Assembly (NCBI GenBank): GCA_025289735.1
Contig: GCA_025289735.1_4764.3
Reading direction: 5' to 3' (one strand)
From: a phage
Length of the DNA: 17,548 nucleotides
Positions 11,236 through 17,548 of this stretch are shown piece by piece. Each line of letters opens with the position of its first letter. Position 1 is the first letter of the stretch. The translations under genes and the position numbers were made by a program. A model generated the notes under the pieces. The model was not told the DNA's origin. It saw only the letters and a program-made list of their open reading frames with translations, and did no database searches.

Positions 11236-11267
11236 AAAATAAAAAAGCCGACCACAAGGATCGGCTT
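11236..11267 (-). terminator. Rho-independent terminator (minus strand) after the 131-aa gene
   Basis: Minus-strand hairpin AGCCGA ... TCGGCT (6 bp, 9-nt loop) followed by TTTTTTATTTT. Confidence 0.6.
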
Positions 11268-11870: not shown

Positions 11871-13235
11871 TCAACCCTTCTTAAGTTCTTTAAGATCTTT
11901 CTTATATTCCTTCATTGCGGTCGTCTTTGTCCAATACTCATATTCACTATGATGTTTATCGGCATCTTTGACCAGTCGATCATACTCTTCTTGGGTAACG
12001 CTGTACAATGGCATAGAAACTAGCTTATCGGCGTATGGACGCAGTTTTTCATGTCCATTGATGGATTGCATTACCTCGGCCTTTTTCTTGCCCTGTAGCT
12101 CGATTTCGCCCTTAATTACGCGGTCGATAAATTCGGCTTTAGCCATTGCATAATTGTATGCTTCCAGCGTTTCCGCTTGCATCAATTCAATGCGTTTATC
12201 GACATAGCCTAATCGGATTTCGACGAATCGACGGATCAGATCGCTCGCTTTCTCGAATACTTCTACTAAACCACGTTCATTAACTACTACGATATTCTGG
12301 GCTACTAACTGTGTTAGTTTAAAATCCTTCATGATTTGCTCATGTCGAGCGGATTCATCTTCGCTTTTGAAATAATCACGTTTCAGTGTTACTTCAAATC
12401 TGAATCCGTCCTTAGAGCAACGGTCATTATACGATACAATCAGATCTTTTTCTTCCAGTGCATCCAGTACCGCTACATATTCTTCACGGTCGAACTTATA
12501 AGGAACTTCTGATATTGTCAGTTTAGTCTTGCCGTTTAGTTCATATGTACCCTCAAGAATTACACCATCGCGATCATCTCGCGGGATAACTTTACCCGTG
12601 AATTTCGGGAATTGAACACTAGGTTCTTTATCCAGTTTTCCGGCAAGTGCTAGCTCTGTGCATTCAATGAGGCTTTCCAGTGAATGCGGTAAAATGTCAG
12701 TTTTATACCCTGTAGCAATACCACTAATACCATTAGCCAATACCATTGGCACAACTGGCAAGTAGAACGCTGGCGGGATGTGTTCCAGATCTTCGTGCTT
12801 CGGTGCGCAATTCATATCTTTATAGATTTTAAAGAAGTTTTCATGCACACGAGCAAAGATATAACGTGCCGCACCTGCTTTCTGGACTAAACGCGATCCG
12901 AAGTTACCTTGACCGTCAAGCAGTGGAGTATTATTGCTCCATGTATTCGCCATGAGTGATCCGGCTTCTACGGCATTAGTTTCCCCGTGGTGATAACCCA
13001 ACTCAGCAACACCAGATCCAATATCTGCCATCTTACGGAATTTCTTACGGTCGCCTTTACTCTTTTGCAAAGCACATTCCATAACAAAGCGTTGCACTGG
13101 TTTAAGCCCATCCACTAATTGAGGAATCCCGCGTTCCTCGGCAGAATAGATCGCATATTCCTTAGCTTCATTATGTACAATGCTTTCAAGGCTGCGGTAA
13201 GTAAATGTGTTTACAATTTGACTAATTTTATCCAT
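11871..13235 (-). CDS. 52: DNA topoisomerase II medium subunit, gp52-like (GyrA-like breakage-reunion domain)
   Basis: ATG at 13233..13235 with GAGGTGA upstream; the track start is a GTG. HNEAKEYAIYSAEERGIPQLVDGLKPVQRFV, GYHHGE, LLDGQGNFGS, ARYIFAR and HIPPAFYLP match recalled T4 gp52 / GyrA N-terminal motifs. Confidence 0.9.
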   Translation of the reverse strand: MDKISQIVNTFTYRSLESIVHNEAKEYAIYSAEERGIPQLVDGLKPVQRFVMECALQKSKGDRKKFRKMADIGSGVAELGYHHGETNAVEAGSLMANTWSNNTPLLDGQGNFGSRLVQKAGAARYIFARVHENFFKIYKDMNCAPKHEDLEHIPPAFYLPVVPMVLANGISGIATGYKTDILPHSLESLIECTELALAGKLDKEPSVQFPKFTGKVIPRDDRDGVILEGTYELNGKTKLTISEVPYKFDREEYVAVLDALEEKDLIVSYNDRCSKDGFRFEVTLKRDYFKSEDESARHEQIMKDFKLTQLVAQNIVVVNERGLVEVFEKASDLIRRFVEIRLGYVDKRIELMQAETLEAYNYAMAKAEFIDRVIKGEIELQGKKKAEVMQSINGHEKLRPYADKLVSMPLYSVTQEEYDRLVKDADKHHSEYEYWTKTTAMKEYKKDLKELKKG

Positions 13236-13242
13236 CTTCACC

Positions 13243-13605
13243 TCATACACGCTTACAAATCACATTCTTTACTTTATCAGATTTATCAGCCCAATCCAAT
13301 AGCCATTTTAACGGAAGGATTGACACAATAAACGGGGCAGCAATCAAAGCAAACATGATACACCTGATAATCAGGAAAACGCAAGTGACAAAACTAGCGA
13401 TAGTGATCCCGACAAAACAAAATACCATAGAAAACAGAGTAATGATATAGAAAGGCCAGAATACCCACTCCCGCATCTTAACGCCTTTGTATTCTCTGAA
13501 TTGCTTAAAATCAACAAACAACTCTCGGATAGACGAGTACAGGACCGAAAAATCATCTTTCATTGCTCTGAATGAGCAATCTTCTATTTTAGAATGACCT
13601 AGCAT
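13243..13605 (-). CDS. Small membrane protein (120 aa, two predicted TM helices)
   Basis: ATG with AAGGCGG upstream. Hydrophobic segments WVFWPFYIITLFSMVFCFVGITIASFV and CVFLIIRCIMFALIAAPFIVSILPL. Confidence 0.55.
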   Translation of the reverse strand: MLGHSKIEDCSFRAMKDDFSVLYSSIRELFVDFKQFREYKGVKMREWVFWPFYIITLFSMVFCFVGITIASFVTCVFLIIRCIMFALIAAPFIVSILPLKWLLDWADKSDKVKNVICKRV

Positions 13606-13607
13606 TA

Positions 13608-13901
13608 TTAACCGCCTTTAACCATTGATACAGGAATTGTTTTCTGATTTGTGTATAATTGGCCTACTTCAATTTTTTCTTGAATCACCACGACGTTACA
13701 ATATCCACTGTCTTTAAGTTTTCTGATAATGACTCGCTTTTGTTCGTCGGTGATAGGATTGACTGTTCTCACCAATTCACCGCAAATAATAGCACCATCT
13801 TTACAATTACCAGTAACTTTCATGCTACGACCGTGAACAACAACCACGTCACCGTAAATCACATTTTCGTCGTCGTATTTGGTAATAACCGTGACCGTCA
13901 T
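13608..13901 (-). CDS. Hypothetical early protein (97 aa)
   Basis: ATG with GAGGGA 7 nt upstream. Val-rich, probably beta-rich. No family recognised. Confidence 0.5.
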   Translation of the reverse strand: MTVTVITKYDDENVIYGDVVVVHGRSMKVTGNCKDGAIICGELVRTVNPITDEQKRVIIRKLKDSGYCNVVVIQEKIEVGQLYTNQKTIPVSMVKGG

Positions 13902-13920: not shown

Positions 13921-13939
13921 AGGCCGCGCAAAGCGGCCT
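13921..13939 (-). terminator. Intergenic hairpin, possible weak terminator or RNA stabiliser (minus strand)
   Basis: AGGCCGC-gcaaa-GCGGCCT stem-loop between two minus-strand genes. On the minus strand it is followed by TTCTT and then the RBS of the next gene. Confidence 0.35.
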
Positions 13940-13946
13940 ATGTTGA

Positions 13947-14273
13947 TTATTGTTCTACAGTATAGCCGTTGTTTTCAAGCCATGCAATAACAATCTTTTC
14001 GCCAATTTCATCGAGCATTTCATCAGCGCCATATTCTTTAATGAAAGTCGATGGATCATTATTGCTTACTACGTGCTGGATCACAACATGTTCAGGAATT
14101 GCGTCTAGCAGTTCGCTATGATCATACTCATTAACGATATCTTCAACACTAACATTATTAACCAAATCAACATCATCCATAGTCACAGTAACGCGACCGG
14201 ACGGACGCAATGAATATTGACTACTTTCAACTTCAACATGTGCACTTTCGCAAGTAACTTTCATATCAACCAT
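13947..14273 (-). CDS. Highly acidic small protein (108 aa)
   Basis: ATG with AGAGGA 8 nt upstream. About 23 Asp+Glu against about 5 Lys+Arg. Immediately downstream of rIIB. Confidence 0.55.
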   Translation of the reverse strand: MVDMKVTCESAHVEVESSQYSLRPSGRVTVTMDDVDLVNNVSVEDIVNEYDHSELLDAIPEHVVIQHVVSNNDPSTFIKEYGADEMLDEIGEKIVIAWLENNGYTVEQ

Positions 14274-14287
14274 AATTAATTCCTCTG

Positions 14288-15280
14288 TTAGTAATGGCTA
14301 AAACCTTCGGTTACATCTTCAACCACATAGTAACGATGACAGCGCATTTTGGCATTCGCATAATCTTTCGGGATACTTACAACGTGACGCGGATCAACTT
14401 TACATTTAATGATTCGGCCTCGTCCACCGCCATAGTGCGGAATATAGTGTTTCGCTGCAACGTGGAGGCCATTAGAGCAAGTGCGATCATCATCTGGGTC
14501 CACGTCTTTACGCTTCATTTTAACCGTGCGCCCTGGGCTATTATCAAATGTATGCGTAAAGAAATCTTTATAATCAACATCAACACGTTTCCATGCATAG
14601 AAACAACCATCTTCCCCGATCTCAATGTCGTTGTGCTCTAAGAAGTCAAATAGACGATCTACCGCCTTACGGCTAGGGTTTTTCTTGCACTTCTCAAAGA
14701 AGTTCAGATAGTGCGTATATGGCTTATTCTCTTTAATCGACTCCACAACTCGACGAGTCAGATTATTATCAAGAACAATATTATGATAATACACAATACC
14801 ATTTTCGATACGGAAAGCGCCGTGATAATATACTTCAACCGCTTTCTTAATGTCAATCAGCGTAATTGCTTTAATAAAATCATTCTGCTTAATCGCTTCC
14901 AGTGCTTCATTAAAGTTAACATGCGACGGATCAGCAGTATAAACAATGTCGCCGCATGTAATAGTAATAAACTTAGTTGAGGCTATTGCGACGATTTTTG
15001 AGGAAGTAGTCACGGGCTTTTTTGCGCGTTCACCGCCTTTTCCTTTACTGGTTTTACGGCGTGCTTTACGTTTTTCTAGTGCCTTGCGACCTTCCGCTAC
15101 TGCGTCTTTCTGAATCAGTAATACACGGGAGGCAGTACGACGAGATACCCCAAATGCTGCCGCAAGTGCTTCGCGGGTAGTAAACTTACCTTCGCCCCAC
15201 TGTTTAGCCAGTTTGATTTGTTTCGCAGAATCCAGGCATTGAACGTTACGGTCAGAGACGGTGATTTTTGCTTTAGTCAT
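14288..15280 (-). CDS. rIIB: rIIB protein (about 330 aa)
   Basis: C-terminal two-thirds match recalled T4 rIIB blocks: KAVDRLFDFLEHNDIEIGEDGCFYAWKRV, FDNSPGRTVKMKR, TCSNGLHVAAKHYIPHYG, PRHVVSIPKDYANAKMR, YYVVEDVTE. The likely start is the ATG at 15278..15280, 9 nt from AGAGGA; the track start at 15289 abuts the SD. Confidence 0.85.
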   Translation of the reverse strand: MTKAKITVSDRNVQCLDSAKQIKLAKQWGEGKFTTREALAAAFGVSRRTASRVLLIQKDAVAEGRKALEKRKARRKTSKGKGGERAKKPVTTSSKIVAIASTKFITITCGDIVYTADPSHVNFNEALEAIKQNDFIKAITLIDIKKAVEVYYHGAFRIENGIVYYHNIVLDNNLTRRVVESIKENKPYTHYLNFFEKCKKNPSRKAVDRLFDFLEHNDIEIGEDGCFYAWKRVDVDYKDFFTHTFDNSPGRTVKMKRKDVDPDDDRTCSNGLHVAAKHYIPHYGGGRGRIIKCKVDPRHVVSIPKDYANAKMRCHRYYVVEDVTEGFSHY

Positions 15281-15342
15281 AGTATTCATTCCTCTATTAG
15301 TTGGGCGACTATCGCCGCCCGATTCACATCATTATACCAGAA

Positions 15343-15474
15343 TTATTTTGCTTCTACAACCTTGCGGATTGTGCGGTCTGATACATTATAGATTCGTGCC
15401 AGTTCGCCTTTAGTCAAGCCGCGAGCGTATTGTTTACGGATGGTTTCTTTCTGGATAGCGGTCAGTTTAGTCAT
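15343..15474 (-). CDS. Unlisted 43-aa helix-turn-helix mini-protein between rIIA and rIIB
   Basis: Hand translation of the minus strand: MTKLTAIQKETIRKQYARGLTKGELARIYNVSDRTIRKVVEAK. SD GAGGTGA 5 nt upstream of the ATG, overlapping the rIIA stop. Resembles the rIIB N-terminus (MTKAKITV...TTREALAAAFGVSRRTASRVL). Too short to appear in the ORF track. Confidence 0.5.
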   Translation of the reverse strand: MTKLTAIQKETIRKQYARGLTKGELARIYNVSDRTIRKVVEAK

Positions 15475-15485
15475 AATATCACCTC

Positions 15486-17548
15486 TTAAAATTTAACATT
15501 CTTAACCAGTTTCATAAAGTCTTGTGCGCGTTTGTCATTATGAAGAATACGATACCAGTTATCTACAATATCATACAGTAACGGGCTATTCTCTTTAAAC
15601 TTCGCACAAACTGCTTTAATTCGTTCGTTTGCTGCCGTGAATTTTTCGTCACAGATCTTTTTAGTTTCTTCGTCCATGATCCAACGAGTACGAAGGAGTA
15701 ACTTGGAAACCTCTTTATTATAATGACGACCGTACAGTCTGTCAATAAATTCTGGAACACAGCGTTCTAATTCATCGTCATGATACAACATAGTGATCAC
15801 GCCCAGATATTCGCCATACCCCAGATGATTGGTCTTAACCTTCTTAGCCAGACCAGCCAGCTTACCGCGAACAAATTCTAGCGCACATTCCAATTGTTCG
15901 TCAACGAGATATTTTTGTGTCTCGTTTCGAGTAATAATATACTTTGTTACCCCGAAGTAGTCAAGCGCCGTGTGTAATGTATTTTCACTATAGATCGATT
16001 GACGGCTACGGCTTTCGAATGCATCACCTACGCGGAACATATGCAAGCCTGATAACTCGCGAATCTCTGCCGCTTTCATGTGATGGCTGGTTTTATGCCA
16101 ACTGTCACCAATCTTTTCCATGATATACACGTTAGGCAGCTTGGGAGTAGCTTCACGTTGTGTACGCTCGGTCTTCTCCGGTTTAACTGCTTTAGCACGC
16201 AGATCATCGGCCTCAGACACTTTAATCACGGTCATTTCAGAATCATCATAATACTGTTTGATGTACTCGAAAGTCTCCATATGTTTTTCGTTGTTCTGAC
16301 GGAACACCAGTACCTTTTTATTGATGCCGTATTCCTGGACCATGCCGTTAAGAGTCAGTGCACGCAGTTTCGGTTTATCGGTATCATCAATAAGACACGT
16401 AATATCTTCTTTATGCATCCATACAAAATGCGTAATGTTGTATTGACTGCTAACGAAAGCAGGGCGCAATTTACTGATTGTGTGACGAGTACGATACAGA
16501 GTATACACCTGACCTTCTACGTCATTAGGCGAATCTTTACCCGCATTAACAAACTTATTATAGATTGCTACCGGATCATCCCATTGCCCGATCTTACCCA
16601 TCTTGCTAATAATATTTCGTTGCGTCGATGAATACTCGCTCATAAATTGCGCAAGTTTACGCTCTGTTTTAATGTTGGCGATCTTCTCTTTGACCTTTTC
16701 CAACATCATTTCATTGATTTCTGCAATGCGTTTTTCGATGTTCGCTTTAGTCTCAATTGACAAGTGAACTTCTTCACGCGATGGCATCAGGTCCAGATCA
16801 CCCAACTCAAAATTAATGTAAATGGTCTGGTGCTGGCGGTTTACAGCTTCTAACCATGTTCCGCGAACATATTCATACGGGATCGGATACTGGATCTTAC
16901 CCATGATTGCATATACTACATAGGAATCGTTATCACGCCCATTACACACATAATAATTATCAAAGCTAGGGAAATAATTAATTTCGATTGCATTGATATT
17001 AGGTTTGTGTTCCCCAAAATGACGAAGTACAAATTGTGCTTCTCGATGCCATGTCTGAATGTCTTTTTCTTTCACCGGAATAGTGATTTTCAGACCATTG
17101 TCTTCATAGGTCGGTTCGTCGAAAATCTGCACCATTTTCGGCATAGAGTTTTGCACAAATGCCGTAAAGCCATAAGCGCGACCATTGTAGTAGTTTACGA
17201 TTGTAAAGGTGTCAGTATAGCTATAAGCAGACTTCGCACCTAAACCAAAAGATCCGATATAATCATTAGTCTGGTCTTTGGTTGATTCAAAGTAAACCGT
17301 AAACAGTTGTTCTAATTCTTTCTTAGACGGAATACCAGTACCATAATCACGCACAGAAAAATACGGTTCAATTGCGGTAGGCAAATGAATATCAAACGGA
17401 CGATCTAAGGTTCCGGCTTCTTTGTGAGTGTCGGTAGCATTGCACGAATACTCACGGACGCAAGCACGCTCACAATATTGATAAGTGTTCTTAGAAAGCA
17501 CCATAAAAGCCTTGCTACTTGCTTTCAGTGAAAAATCAACCGCACCGC
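15486..17548 (-). CDS. rIIA: rIIA protein, 5'-truncated by the window edge (GHKL-type ATPase fold at the N-terminus)
   Basis: Reading frame stays open upstream of the track Met to the window end (...GAVDFSLKASSKAF-MVLSK...). SKAF, VREYSCNATDTH, DRPFDIHLP, VRDYGTGIP, DYIGSFGLGAKSAYSYTDTF and IEINYFPSFDNYY parallel recalled T4 rIIA N-terminal motifs. Position is upstream of rIIB as in T4. Confidence 0.85.
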   Translation of the reverse strand, partial: GAVDFSLKASSKAFMVLSKNTYQYCERACVREYSCNATDTHKEAGTLDRPFDIHLPTAIEPYFSVRDYGTGIPSKKELEQLFTVYFESTKDQTNDYIGSFGLGAKSAYSYTDTFTIVNYYNGRAYGFTAFVQNSMPKMVQIFDEPTYEDNGLKITIPVKEKDIQTWHREAQFVLRHFGEHKPNINAIEINYFPSFDNYYVCNGRDNDSYVVYAIMGKIQYPIPYEYVRGTWLEAVNRQHQTIYINFELGDLDLMPSREEVHLSIETKANIEKRIAEINEMMLEKVKEKIANIKTERKLAQFMSEYSSTQRNIISKMGKIGQWDDPVAIYNKFVNAGKDSPNDVEGQVYTLYRTRHTISKLRPAFVSSQYNITHFVWMHKEDITCLIDDTDKPKLRALTLNGMVQEYGINKKVLVFRQNNEKHMETFEYIKQYYDDSEMTVIKVSEADDLRAKAVKPEKTERTQREATPKLPNVYIMEKIGDSWHKTSHHMKAAEIRELSGLHMFRVGDAFESRSRQSIYSENTLHTALDYFGVTKYIITRNETQKYLVDEQLECALEFVRGKLAGLAKKVKTNHLGYGEYLGVITMLYHDDELERCVPEFIDRLYGRHYNKEVSKLLLRTRWIMDEETKKICDEKFTAANERIKAVCAKFKENSPLLYDIVDNWYRILHNDKRAQDFMKLVKNVKF

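What the first reader, a model, noticed from the sequence alone, without database searches (positions are those of the whole stretch)
13243..13605. Two-TM membrane protein directly upstream of gene 52
A 120-aa protein with two strong hydrophobic helices sits where T4 carries small membrane or host-interaction genes upstream of 52. It is a candidate for membrane-targeted host takeover or exclusion, and lies in the same transcription unit as rIIA and rIIB, which are themselves membrane-associated exclusion-related proteins.
Basis: inference. Interest (0 to 1): 0.35.

Follow-up and report, generated by a model that had tools for sequence, protein, structure and literature searches.

The report
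Uncharacterised two-helix phage membrane protein
The 120-codon gene just upstream of the topoisomerase gene 52 is a real, already catalogued early gene of RB49-like coliphages that encodes a small inner-membrane hairpin protein of unknown function found only in this phage clade, which makes it an ordinary phage accessory gene with a few testable leads.

Summary
Window 13243..13605 (- strand) is a 120-aa ORF with a 53-residue hydrophobic core (W47-L99) immediately upstream of gene 52. The window is a Krischvirus (RB49-like). The ORF is RB49p270 = RB49ORF268c, for which Nolan et al. 2006 already list TMHMM helices at 48-70 and 77-99. It is also PHROG 16033, 'unknown function'.

It is a real gene: dN/dS is 0.067 among 12 genomes, and it has a good Shine-Dalgarno site.

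The family is tiny. It comprises 59 Krischvirus genomes plus two uncultured sister lineages (34-36% identity), and the gene sits directly before gene 52 in all of them. In the two sister lineages it is the last cistron after rIIB, followed by a terminator.

There is no detectable homology to T4 52.1, Ac, Ndd-region proteins, Imm, holins, any Pfam or NCBIfam family, or any PDB chain.

The predicted topology is N-in/C-in with a periplasmic turn of about 6 residues. The most conserved part is the basic cytoplasmic C-terminal helix. The protein must therefore act within the membrane or on its cytoplasmic face.

An exclusion-related role (RII-associated or Imm-like) is the best guess, but it is inferred only. 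Interest is low.

The parts
13243..13605 (-). ORF120 coding sequence (120 aa plus TGA). It equals RB49p270, RB49ORF268c and phi1 ORF270, and belongs to PHROG 16033.
13612..13618 (-). Shine-Dalgarno-like AAGGCGG, 6 nt before the ORF120 ATG. It overlaps the last codons of orf97, whose stop is at 13610-13608.
   Evidence: It is invariant in 7 Krischvirus genomes and duplicated along with the junction in phage phiS.
13468..13605 (-). Residues 1-46: charged N-terminal domain, predicted to be a cytoplasmic amphipathic helix (about 10-40) with invariant L22, I26 and L29. It ends in a basic cluster, K40 K43 R45.
13396..13464 (-). Residues 48-70: transmembrane helix 1.
   Evidence: TMHMM 48-70 in Nolan 2006 Additional file 2
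13378..13395 (-). Residues 71-76 (SFVTCV): short, uncharged predicted periplasmic turn. The small or polar residues here are kept in all three lineages. The most variable positions within Krischvirus (68, 76) flank it.
   Evidence: AF2 helix break at 73-74, low confidence
13309..13377 (-). Residues 77-99: transmembrane helix 2, containing R81. An Arg is present in helix 2 in all three lineages.
13246..13308 (-). Residues 100-120: basic cytoplasmic C-terminal helix, the most conserved segment across lineages (invariant L103, A106, S109, C117, K118).
13238..13244 (-). Gene-52 Shine-Dalgarno GAGGTGA, overlapping the ORF120 stop codon. The gene-52 ATG is at 13235.
11871..13235 (-). Gene 52, topoisomerase II medium subunit (downstream neighbour).
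13608..13901 (-). orf97 (RB49p271), the upstream neighbour. It is Krischvirus-specific and absent from both sister lineages.
13921..13939 (-). Invariant GC-rich hairpin (7-bp stem, -13.9 kcal/mol) between orf108 and orf97. Some records annotate it as a terminator, but the T tract is poor, and gene 52 has no promoter of its own downstream of it.
13947..14273 (-). orf108 (RB49p272), a very acidic small protein. A 40%-identical homologue lies directly before the ORF120 homologue in L013.
14288..15289 (-). rIIB.
15486..17504 (-). rIIA. The reading frame is complete in the window; the promoters predicted upstream of rIIA in RB49 lie beyond the window end.
11245..11267 (-). Intrinsic terminator that closes the rIIA-to-gene-52 unit. 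It corresponds to the TransTerm site at RB49 159775-159793.

Best explanation
SHOWN: ORF120 is a genuine gene under purifying selection in Krischvirus (RB49-like) phages. It lies in the leftward early gene block (timing inferred from position and published promoter and terminator predictions, not measured) and encodes a small integral inner-membrane protein.

INFERRED FROM SEQUENCE (strong): the protein is a helical hairpin with helices at 48-70 and 77-99.
- Both ends are cytoplasmic. The flanks are net positive, there is no signal peptide, and the turn is uncharged.
- Only about six residues face the periplasm.
- The cytoplasmic side carries a 46-residue amphipathic N-terminal helix and a conserved basic C-terminal helix ending in an invariant Cys-Lys.

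Because almost nothing is exposed to the periplasm, the protein must work inside the bilayer or at its cytoplasmic face. The likely mode is binding a partner through the conserved C-terminal helix and the Arg-bearing second helix.

INFERRED (weak): it is an accessory, lineage-specific factor of the rII module. Ancestrally it was the last cistron of the rIIA-HTH-rIIB operon. It acts in membrane-level exclusion, in one of two ways:
- as a membrane docking partner or modulator for the RIIA/RIIB proteins, which have no transmembrane segment; or
- as an Imm-like factor that changes the inner membrane so that superinfecting DNA cannot enter. RB49 has no imm homologue.

My confidence is about 0.9 for the gene and topology part and about 0.35 for the exclusion-related mechanism. 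The figure given is for the mechanism.
For: Gene reality:
- dN/dS is 0.067, with 23 of 33 variable sites at codon position 3.
- The ORF is intact in all 59 Krischvirus records.
- A Shine-Dalgarno site precedes the aligned Met in all three lineages.

Membrane hairpin:
- Hydrophobicity profiles and the published TMHMM helices 48-70 and 77-99 with no signal peptide.
- AF2 with the 4-sequence alignment breaks the helix at 73-74.
- The hydrophobic pattern is retained at 13-34% identity in the relatives.

Topology:
- Net charge is +3 in the 15 residues before helix 1, +3 in the C-tail, and 0 in the turn, read with the positive-inside rule (established knowledge).

Conserved cytoplasmic tail:
- Identity is 33-53% in residues 100-120, against 13-34% in the hairpin. 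L103, A106, S109, C117 and K118 are invariant.

Link to rII:
- In L014-L017 the homologue starts 4-5 nt after rIIB and is followed by a terminator and a TTGACA/TATAAT promoter before gene 52.
- In L013 it follows the orf108 homologue and is again followed by a terminator.
- RIIA and RIIB of this phage have no transmembrane-grade hydrophobic segment. T4 RII proteins are membrane-associated (established knowledge; see also the record notes).
- No predicted early promoter or terminator separates rIIA from this gene in RB49.

Imm-like option:
- No tblastn-detectable imm anywhere in the RB49 genome.
Against: - There are no experimental data and no relative of known function.
- Early operons of T4-type phages are mosaics, so sharing an operon is weak evidence for a shared function (Nolan et al. 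2006).
- T4 and every other rII-bearing phage outside this clade lack the family, so RII proteins do not generally need it.
- RB49 encodes more than 20 other small two-helix proteins, any of which could be the Imm analogue.
- In Krischvirus itself the gene is packed against gene 52 rather than rIIB, with orf97 and a hairpin in between.
- The AF2 models are low confidence (pLDDT 62-75) and disagree on whether there is a turn.
- The topology was not checked with a modern predictor or by experiment.
Confidence: 0.35

Rival explanations
1. Membrane tether or assembly factor for the phage topoisomerase II (gp39/gp52) or the early replication complex. The hairpin would anchor in the inner membrane and its cytoplasmic helices would bind gp52 or gp39. 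Synthesis would be coupled to gene 52 by termination-reinitiation.
For: - The gene is immediately upstream of gene 52 in all three lineages, while the other intervening genes come and go.
- In Krischvirus its TGA lies inside the gene-52 Shine-Dalgarno, 8 nt before the ATG.
- Tevenvirinae carry a different small hydrophobic hairpin (52.1 type) at exactly the same place.
- gp39 is described as membrane-associated in the RB49 record note.
Against: - In both sister lineages a terminator, and in L014 also a promoter, separates it from gene 52.
- It diverges about four times faster than gp52: 36% and 34% identity against 83% and 74%.
- Most phages with gene 52 lack any membrane protein there: Ndd, gp39, an AAA protein or a secreted protein lies upstream instead.
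- The three lineages are close relatives, so shared position may simply be inherited synteny (the next cultured gp52 is at most 55% identical).
Confidence: 0.15
2. Modulator or inhibitor of a host inner-membrane machine unrelated to exclusion, such as a transporter, a protease like FtsH, the divisome or the respiratory chain. This would be a generic early host-takeover factor that binds a host transmembrane protein through the Arg-bearing helix.
For: - Placement in the early gene block.
- A conserved Arg inside helix 2 with no acidic partner in the protein's own helices.
- Rapid between-lineage divergence with within-genus constraint, typical of host-interaction genes.
- Nolan et al. note that regions of novel ORFs were under-represented in plasmid libraries, suggesting that some are toxic.
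Against: Nothing points to a particular target. The hypothesis is unspecific and shares all its evidence with the other readings.
Confidence: 0.2
3. Small pore-former or lysis-timing factor (class II holin, antiholin or viroporin-like). Hairpins would oligomerise, with Arg lining a polar path, to change membrane potential or tune T-holin triggering.
For: - Two predicted helices, N-in/C-in, with a highly basic C-terminal tail, as in class II holins (holin features from established knowledge).
- It lies beside the 'rapid lysis' genes.
- An internal Met44 preceded by AAGGCG could give a short form in Krischvirus.
Against: - Met44 is Leu or Ile in the relatives, so there is no conserved dual start.
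- The gene is in the leftward early block, not next to an endolysin. RB49 has the T holin, rI and an endolysin elsewhere.
- No holin family is hit in Pfam or PHROGs even at E up to 5-10.
Confidence: 0.07

Closest known systems
T4 gp52.1 (46 aa, 'conserved hypothetical predicted membrane protein') and its homologues in Jiaodavirus, Winklervirus and Tegunavirus
   Same: It is a small protein with two hydrophobic helices encoded immediately upstream of gene 52 on the same strand in the early region. It is also uncharacterised.
   Different: There is no detectable homology: BLAST E is 1.9 and hhalign probability is 10.8%. gp52.1 is a bare hairpin of 46-51 aa, whereas ORF120 adds a 46-residue cytoplasmic N-domain and a conserved 21-residue basic tail.
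T4 Ac (acridine sensitivity, 51 aa) and the ndd.2-ndd.6 small membrane ORFs of the rIIB-to-52 region
   Same: They occupy the same plastic region between rIIB and 52 and are small hydrophobic early proteins.
   Different: There is no sequence similarity, and none of these T4 genes is detectable anywhere in RB49.
T4 Imm (superinfection immunity, 83 aa)
   Same: It is an early, small inner-membrane protein with two hydrophobic helices and a charged C-terminal tail (sequence). RB49 lacks it, so an analogue may exist.
   Different: hhalign probability is 0.3%. The genomic position differs (42-43 region in T4). Imm has no N-terminal soluble domain. The function of ORF120 is untested.
RB43ORF292c (138 aa) of Pseudotevenvirus RB43
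   Same: It has the same architecture: a soluble N-terminus of about 50 residues, two TMHMM helices (51-71, 92-112) and a Lys-rich tail. It is encoded directly after an rII gene, rIIA.
   Different: hhalign probability is 2.5%. It is followed by ndd, not gene 52. It is also uncharacterised.
Class II holins / pinholins (e.g. phage 21 S21)
   Same: They share the predicted two-helix N-in/C-in topology with a basic cytoplasmic C-terminus.
   Different: ORF120 lies in the early gene block, has no conserved dual start and no adjacent endolysin, and hits no holin family. The phage already has the T holin.

Membership tests
PHROG 16033 (unknown function) | Full-length match to the family HMM | tested here: met
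   E = 3.7e-81, residues 1-120 on profile positions 1-120 of 120. The distant relatives P0004 and P0005 also match, at 1.4e-23 and 9.6e-13.
T4 gp52.1 family | Sequence homology to gp52.1 | tested here: not met
   BLASTP E = 1.9. tblastn of T4 52.1 against the whole RB49 genome gives nothing below E = 4. The profile-profile probability is 10.8%.
T4 gp52.1 family | Small hydrophobic hairpin encoded immediately upstream of gene 52 | tested here: met
   The position and two hydrophobic helices are shared. This is positional and architectural analogy only.
T4 Ac / Stp / Ndd / ndd.1-6 / DenB (genes of the T4 rIIB-to-52 region) | Sequence homology | tested here: not met
   No BLASTP hit below E = 0.39. 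There are no tblastn hits in RB49; the best is the 28-aa ndd.6, a 14-residue chance match at E = 0.013.
T4 Imm superinfection immunity protein | Sequence or profile homology to Imm | tested here: not met
   hhalign probability 0.3%. Imm tblastn against RB49: best E = 8.8.
T4 Imm superinfection immunity protein | Blocks DNA entry of superinfecting phage | not testable with these tools
   Needs superinfection and DNA-injection assays with a deletion mutant or an expression clone.
Class II holin / pinholin | Two transmembrane domains, N-in/C-in, with a basic C-terminus | tested here: inconclusive
   This is predicted from hydrophobicity, charge distribution and published TMHMM. AF2 confidence is low and there is no experimental topology.
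Class II holin / pinholin | Late lysis-cassette context and a conserved dual start (holin/antiholin) | tested here: not met
   The gene is in the leftward early block between rIIB and 52. Met44 is not conserved. There is no holin HMM hit. The T holin is present elsewhere.
Any curated protein family (Pfam-A, NCBIfam) or solved structure | HMM match above threshold, or a PDB or BFVD relative | tested here: not met
   The best hits are far below their cut-offs: Pfam E = 0.25 and NCBIfam E = 0.078. PDB phmmer E is above 8. The best Foldseek BFVD E is 5.4.

The most novel reading that the evidence does not exclude
ORF120 is a previously unrecognised membrane adaptor of the Krischvirus clade. It would physically dock the transmembrane-less RIIA/RIIB proteins, or the gp39/gp52 topoisomerase, to the inner membrane through its conserved cytoplasmic helices. 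That would give the first molecular handle on how the rII module (or early replication) is coupled to the membrane. T4's non-homologous gp52.1 would be the positional equivalent.
Probability: 0.12. Interest if true: 0.5.

Novelty: already known. Interest (0 to 1): 0.2.

Why it matters
As it stands it matters little. It is one of about 150 RB49 ORFs without a T4 counterpart, and one of more than 20 small two-helix proteins in that genome. It is already annotated as hypothetical or putative membrane protein and was already listed with its two helices in 2006.

Its value is as a defined candidate. It is compact, strongly constrained, clade-restricted and faces the cytoplasm. It is the only integral membrane protein of the rIIA-rIIB-52 unit, in a phage genus that lacks Imm, Ac, 52.1 and Ndd.

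If it proved to be the membrane partner of RII proteins, or an Imm substitute, it would help with the old question of what RII proteins do at the membrane. It would also bear on how therapeutic Krischvirus phages exclude competitors.

Tried and rejected
- **Family and structure searches.** Homology to T4 52.1, ac, stp, ndd, ndd.1-6, denB and denB.1 by BLASTP found nothing. Pfam, NCBIfam and PHROGs at relaxed thresholds gave only PHROG 16033, for the window protein and for both distant relatives. PDB sequence search found nothing.
- **Large protein databases.** The word-indexed search, with a single sequence and with a profile, returned only the same family. Exhaustive HMMER against 1.84 billion representatives returned only two distant relatives.
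- **Contig collections.** IMG/VR and JGI metagenome scans found only near-identical Krischvirus copies. The GTDB genome scan found no bacterial or prophage relative.
- **tblastn of P0004 and P0005 against cultured phages.** Only Krischvirus matched.
- **Structure prediction.** The single-sequence model (pLDDT 75) gives one long helix 49-119. The 4-sequence model (pLDDT 62) gives a hairpin. Neither is good enough for fold comparison, and Foldseek against BFVD gave nothing. I ran no further search on such a model.
- **Dual-start (holin/antiholin) idea.** Rejected because Met44 is not conserved.
- **Remote homology.** Rejected for RB43ORF292c, T4 Imm and the gp52.1 family by hhalign.
- **Recurrence of a small membrane protein before gene 52.** This holds only for the Tevenvirinae 52.1 family and this clade, not for five other lineages.
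- **Paralogues in RB49.** None found.
- **Literature.** No paper mentions the locus tags or accessions. The RB49 'snapshot' paper (PMC135041) is not held.

Full report
**What the window is**

A 1.3-kb stretch around the finding matches 59 phage genomes at 90% identity or more. All are Krischvirus: RB49, JSE, Phi1, GEC-3S, ECD7, MIZ2-6 and others.

On the - strand the gene order is:
- rIIA (17504..15486)
- a 43-aa helix-turn-helix ORF (15474..15343)
- rIIB (15289..14288)
- orf108 (14273..13947)
- a GC hairpin (13939..13921)
- orf97 (13901..13608)
- the ORF in question (13605..13243)
- gene 52 (ATG 13235 to 11871)
- two small ORFs
- an intrinsic terminator (11267..11245)

**The observation**

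It has 120 codons, starts at ATG and stops at TGA. AAGGCGG lies 6 nt upstream of the ATG.

Residues 47-99 are hydrophobic and uncharged except for R81. The N-terminal 46 residues are charged, and the last 21 are basic. No other protein of the unit approaches transmembrane hydrophobicity, including RIIA and RIIB.

The RB49 orthologue is RB49p270. In the numbering of Nolan et al. 2006 it is RB49ORF268c. I derived this from the terminator entry 'RB49ORF264c<--RB49ORF265c' at 159775-159793, which lies between RB49p266 and RB49p267. Their TMHMM table lists helices 48-70 and 77-99 and no signal peptide for this ORF. RB49p268 itself is only 65 aa, so it cannot be that entry.

AlphaFold2 with four sequences breaks the helix at 73-74, but at low confidence (pLDDT 62). 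The single-sequence model draws one continuous helix. The small or polar patch S71/T74/C75 is kept as H/T/C and S/G/G in the two distant relatives, which fits a turn there.

Both flanks are net positive and the turn is uncharged. By the positive-inside rule the termini are therefore cytoplasmic, and only about six residues face the periplasm.

**It is a real gene**

Among 12 Krischvirus genomes, 33 nucleotide positions vary, 23 of them at codon position 3. The Nei-Gojobori dN/dS is 0.067. For comparison, rIIB gives 0.058, orf108 0.084 and orf97 0.187. My gp52 figure in that call is an alignment artefact caused by different annotated starts and should be ignored.

One phage, Ec_Makalu_001, differs at 15 nucleotides (95.9% identity) but at only one residue.

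**How wide the family is**

- PHROGs places the ORF in phrog_16033, unknown function.
- Pfam, NCBIfam and PDB give nothing.
- tblastn against 50,697 phage records finds only the 59 Krischvirus genomes.
- The 5.8-billion-protein word search finds only near-identical copies, all labelled 'hypothetical' or 'uncharacterized'.
- Exhaustive HMMER against 1.84 billion cluster representatives adds just two relatives: P0004 (123 aa, 36% identity, E = 1e-17) and P0005 (120 aa, 34% identity, E = 2e-7).
- Both relatives hit phrog_16033 and, reciprocally, only Krischvirus among cultured phages.
- Scans of IMG/VR, JGI metagenomes and one genome per GTDB species add nothing new and find no bacterial copy.

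**Context in the relatives**

P0004 and P0005 come from uncultured T4-type phages that are sister lineages of Krischvirus. Their gp52 is 83% and 74% identical to the window's. The best cultured non-Krischvirus gp52 is at most 55% identical.

In L014-L017 the order is rIIA, HTH, rIIB, homologue, terminator, TTGACA/TATAAT promoter, gene 52. In L013 it is rIIB, two ORFs, orf108 homologue, homologue, terminator, gene 52. Three conclusions follow.

- (a) The gene sits directly before gene 52 in all three lineages.
- (b) In the two sister lineages it is the last cistron of the rII operon.
- (c) In Krischvirus the terminator spacer has been lost, so the TGA now sits in the gene-52 Shine-Dalgarno, and orf97 plus a hairpin have been inserted upstream.

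The protein diverges far faster than its neighbours: 34-36% identity, against 62-87% for RIIB and 74-83% for gp52.

Across lineages the C-terminal helix is the best conserved part, with L103, A106, S109, C117 and K118 invariant. An Arg is present in helix 2 in all three lineages, and the hydrophobic face L22/I26/L29 of the N-terminal helix is invariant.

**Transcription**

Nolan et al. predict RB49 early promoters just upstream of rIIA (Pe:2232, Pe:2846). They predict none between there and Pe:159769, and no terminator before 159775-159793.

The hairpin between orf108 and orf97 is invariant (-13.9 kcal/mol) but has a poor T tract. Only 19 nt separate it from the orf97 ATG. Gene 52 must therefore be reached by read-through.

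The 'same transcription unit as rIIA and rIIB' statement is thus plausible, but it rests on prediction. A simple scan also finds consensus sigma-70 hexamers inside rIIA and rIIB.

**Comparison with T4 and others**

T4 has denB, ndd.1-6, ndd, stp, ac and 52.1 between rIIB and 52. None is similar to ORF120. None of them, nor imm, is detectable in the complete RB49 genome.

The gene immediately upstream of 52 differs by lineage:
- a 46-51-aa hydrophobic hairpin of the 52.1 family in T4, Jiaodavirus and Winklervirus, with a similar unannotated hydrophobic ORF in Tegunavirus;
- Ndd in Providencia phage PSTCR6 and Aeromonas phage ZPAH1;
- gp39 in Klebsiella phage ALF_ER54;
- unrelated soluble or secreted proteins in Nanhuvirus and Schizotequatrovirus.

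Profile-profile comparison of the ORF120 family gives 10.8% probability against the 52.1 family, 0.3% against T4 Imm, and 2.5% against the architecturally similar RB43ORF292c. None of these is significant.

**Mechanism**

What the anatomy allows: with a six-residue periplasmic turn, the protein cannot act on periplasmic targets. It must act in the bilayer or at the cytoplasmic face, most likely through the conserved C-terminal helix and the Arg-bearing second helix.

I rank the possible mechanisms as follows.
- Exclusion-related role, about 0.35. This means either an RII-associated membrane partner or an Imm-like block.
- Another host inner-membrane target, about 0.2.
- Tether for topoisomerase II, about 0.15.
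- Pore or lysis-timing role, about 0.07.

All four are inferences; none is shown.

**Verdict**

The gene and its two-helix prediction are already on record (RB49ORF268c in Nolan et al. 2006, PHROG 16033, and 'putative membrane protein' in phage W115), and its function is unknown.

- evidence of strong purifying selection;
- two distant homologues;
- the conserved rIIB-X-52 arrangement, with a likely ancestral terminator after X;
- a topology argument that confines its action to the membrane or cytoplasmic face;
- negative tests against every obvious known family.

Interest is low (0.2).

Noticed in passing
window 15343-15474 (-): A 43-aa helix-turn-helix ORF lies between rIIA and rIIB (Pfam CENP-B_N 7e-6, Sigma70_r4-like). 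It also hits the RIIB PHROG profile (phrog_609) at the same profile region as the N-terminus of RIIB, so it looks like a free-standing copy of RIIB's N-terminal HTH. It is 84% conserved in the metagenomic sister lineage L014.
   Followed up: partly
window 13947-14273 (-): orf108 (RB49p272) is extremely acidic (net charge -18, pI 4.1), a DNA-mimic-like composition. A 40%-identical homologue sits directly before the ORF120 homologue in L013. It has no family beyond PHROGs 14049 and 7311.
   Followed up: partly
window 13921-13939: A GC-rich hairpin (7-bp stem, -13.9 kcal/mol) between orf108 and orf97 is invariant in seven Krischvirus genomes. GEC-3S and Makalu annotate it as a terminator, but it has a poor T tract and TransTerm did not call it in Nolan 2006. 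It may be an attenuator or an mRNA-stability element in front of orf97-ORF120-52.
   Followed up: partly
L008 (phage phiS) 2169-2200, equivalent to window ~13606-13611: A 30-nt perfect tandem duplication of the end of orf97 plus the Shine-Dalgarno site lies immediately before the ORF120 ATG. It leaves both reading frames intact.
   Followed up: no
L013 1587-1626; L014 8364-8466: In both uncultured sister lineages the ORF120 homologue is followed by a strong intrinsic terminator. In L014 a consensus TTGACA...TATAAT promoter follows, in front of gene 52. Krischvirus has lost this spacer, so the ORF120 stop codon overlaps the gene-52 Shine-Dalgarno.
   Followed up: yes
L023 5540-5956 (RB43ORF292c): Pseudotevenvirus RB43 encodes a 138-aa protein directly after rIIA and before ndd. 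Its architecture is the same (soluble N-terminus, TMHMM helices 51-71 and 92-112, Lys-rich tail), but there is no detectable homology.
   Followed up: partly
RB49 whole genome (L025-L028, L001): RB49 has no tblastn-detectable homologue of T4 imm, ac, 52.1, stp, ndd, ndd.1-6 or denB, although it keeps rI, t, rIIA and rIIB. Nolan 2006 lists more than 20 small two-helix ORFs in RB49, many in a tandem block (ORF103c-124c).
   Followed up: partly
window 15717-15745 (-) and 14827-14856 (-): A perfect TTGACA-17-TATAAT lies inside the 3' part of rIIA, and an 11/12 match lies inside rIIB. These may be internal early promoters feeding the HTH-rIIB and the orf108-to-52 parts of the unit. The T4-type early-promoter HMM of Nolan 2006 did not call them.
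   Followed up: no
L032 1-393 (Yersinia phage TG1): The 393 nt upstream of gene 52 are unannotated. They contain two small, strongly hydrophobic ORFs (about 49 and 51 aa) resembling the ac and 52.1 pair of T4, so these genes were probably missed.
   Followed up: partly
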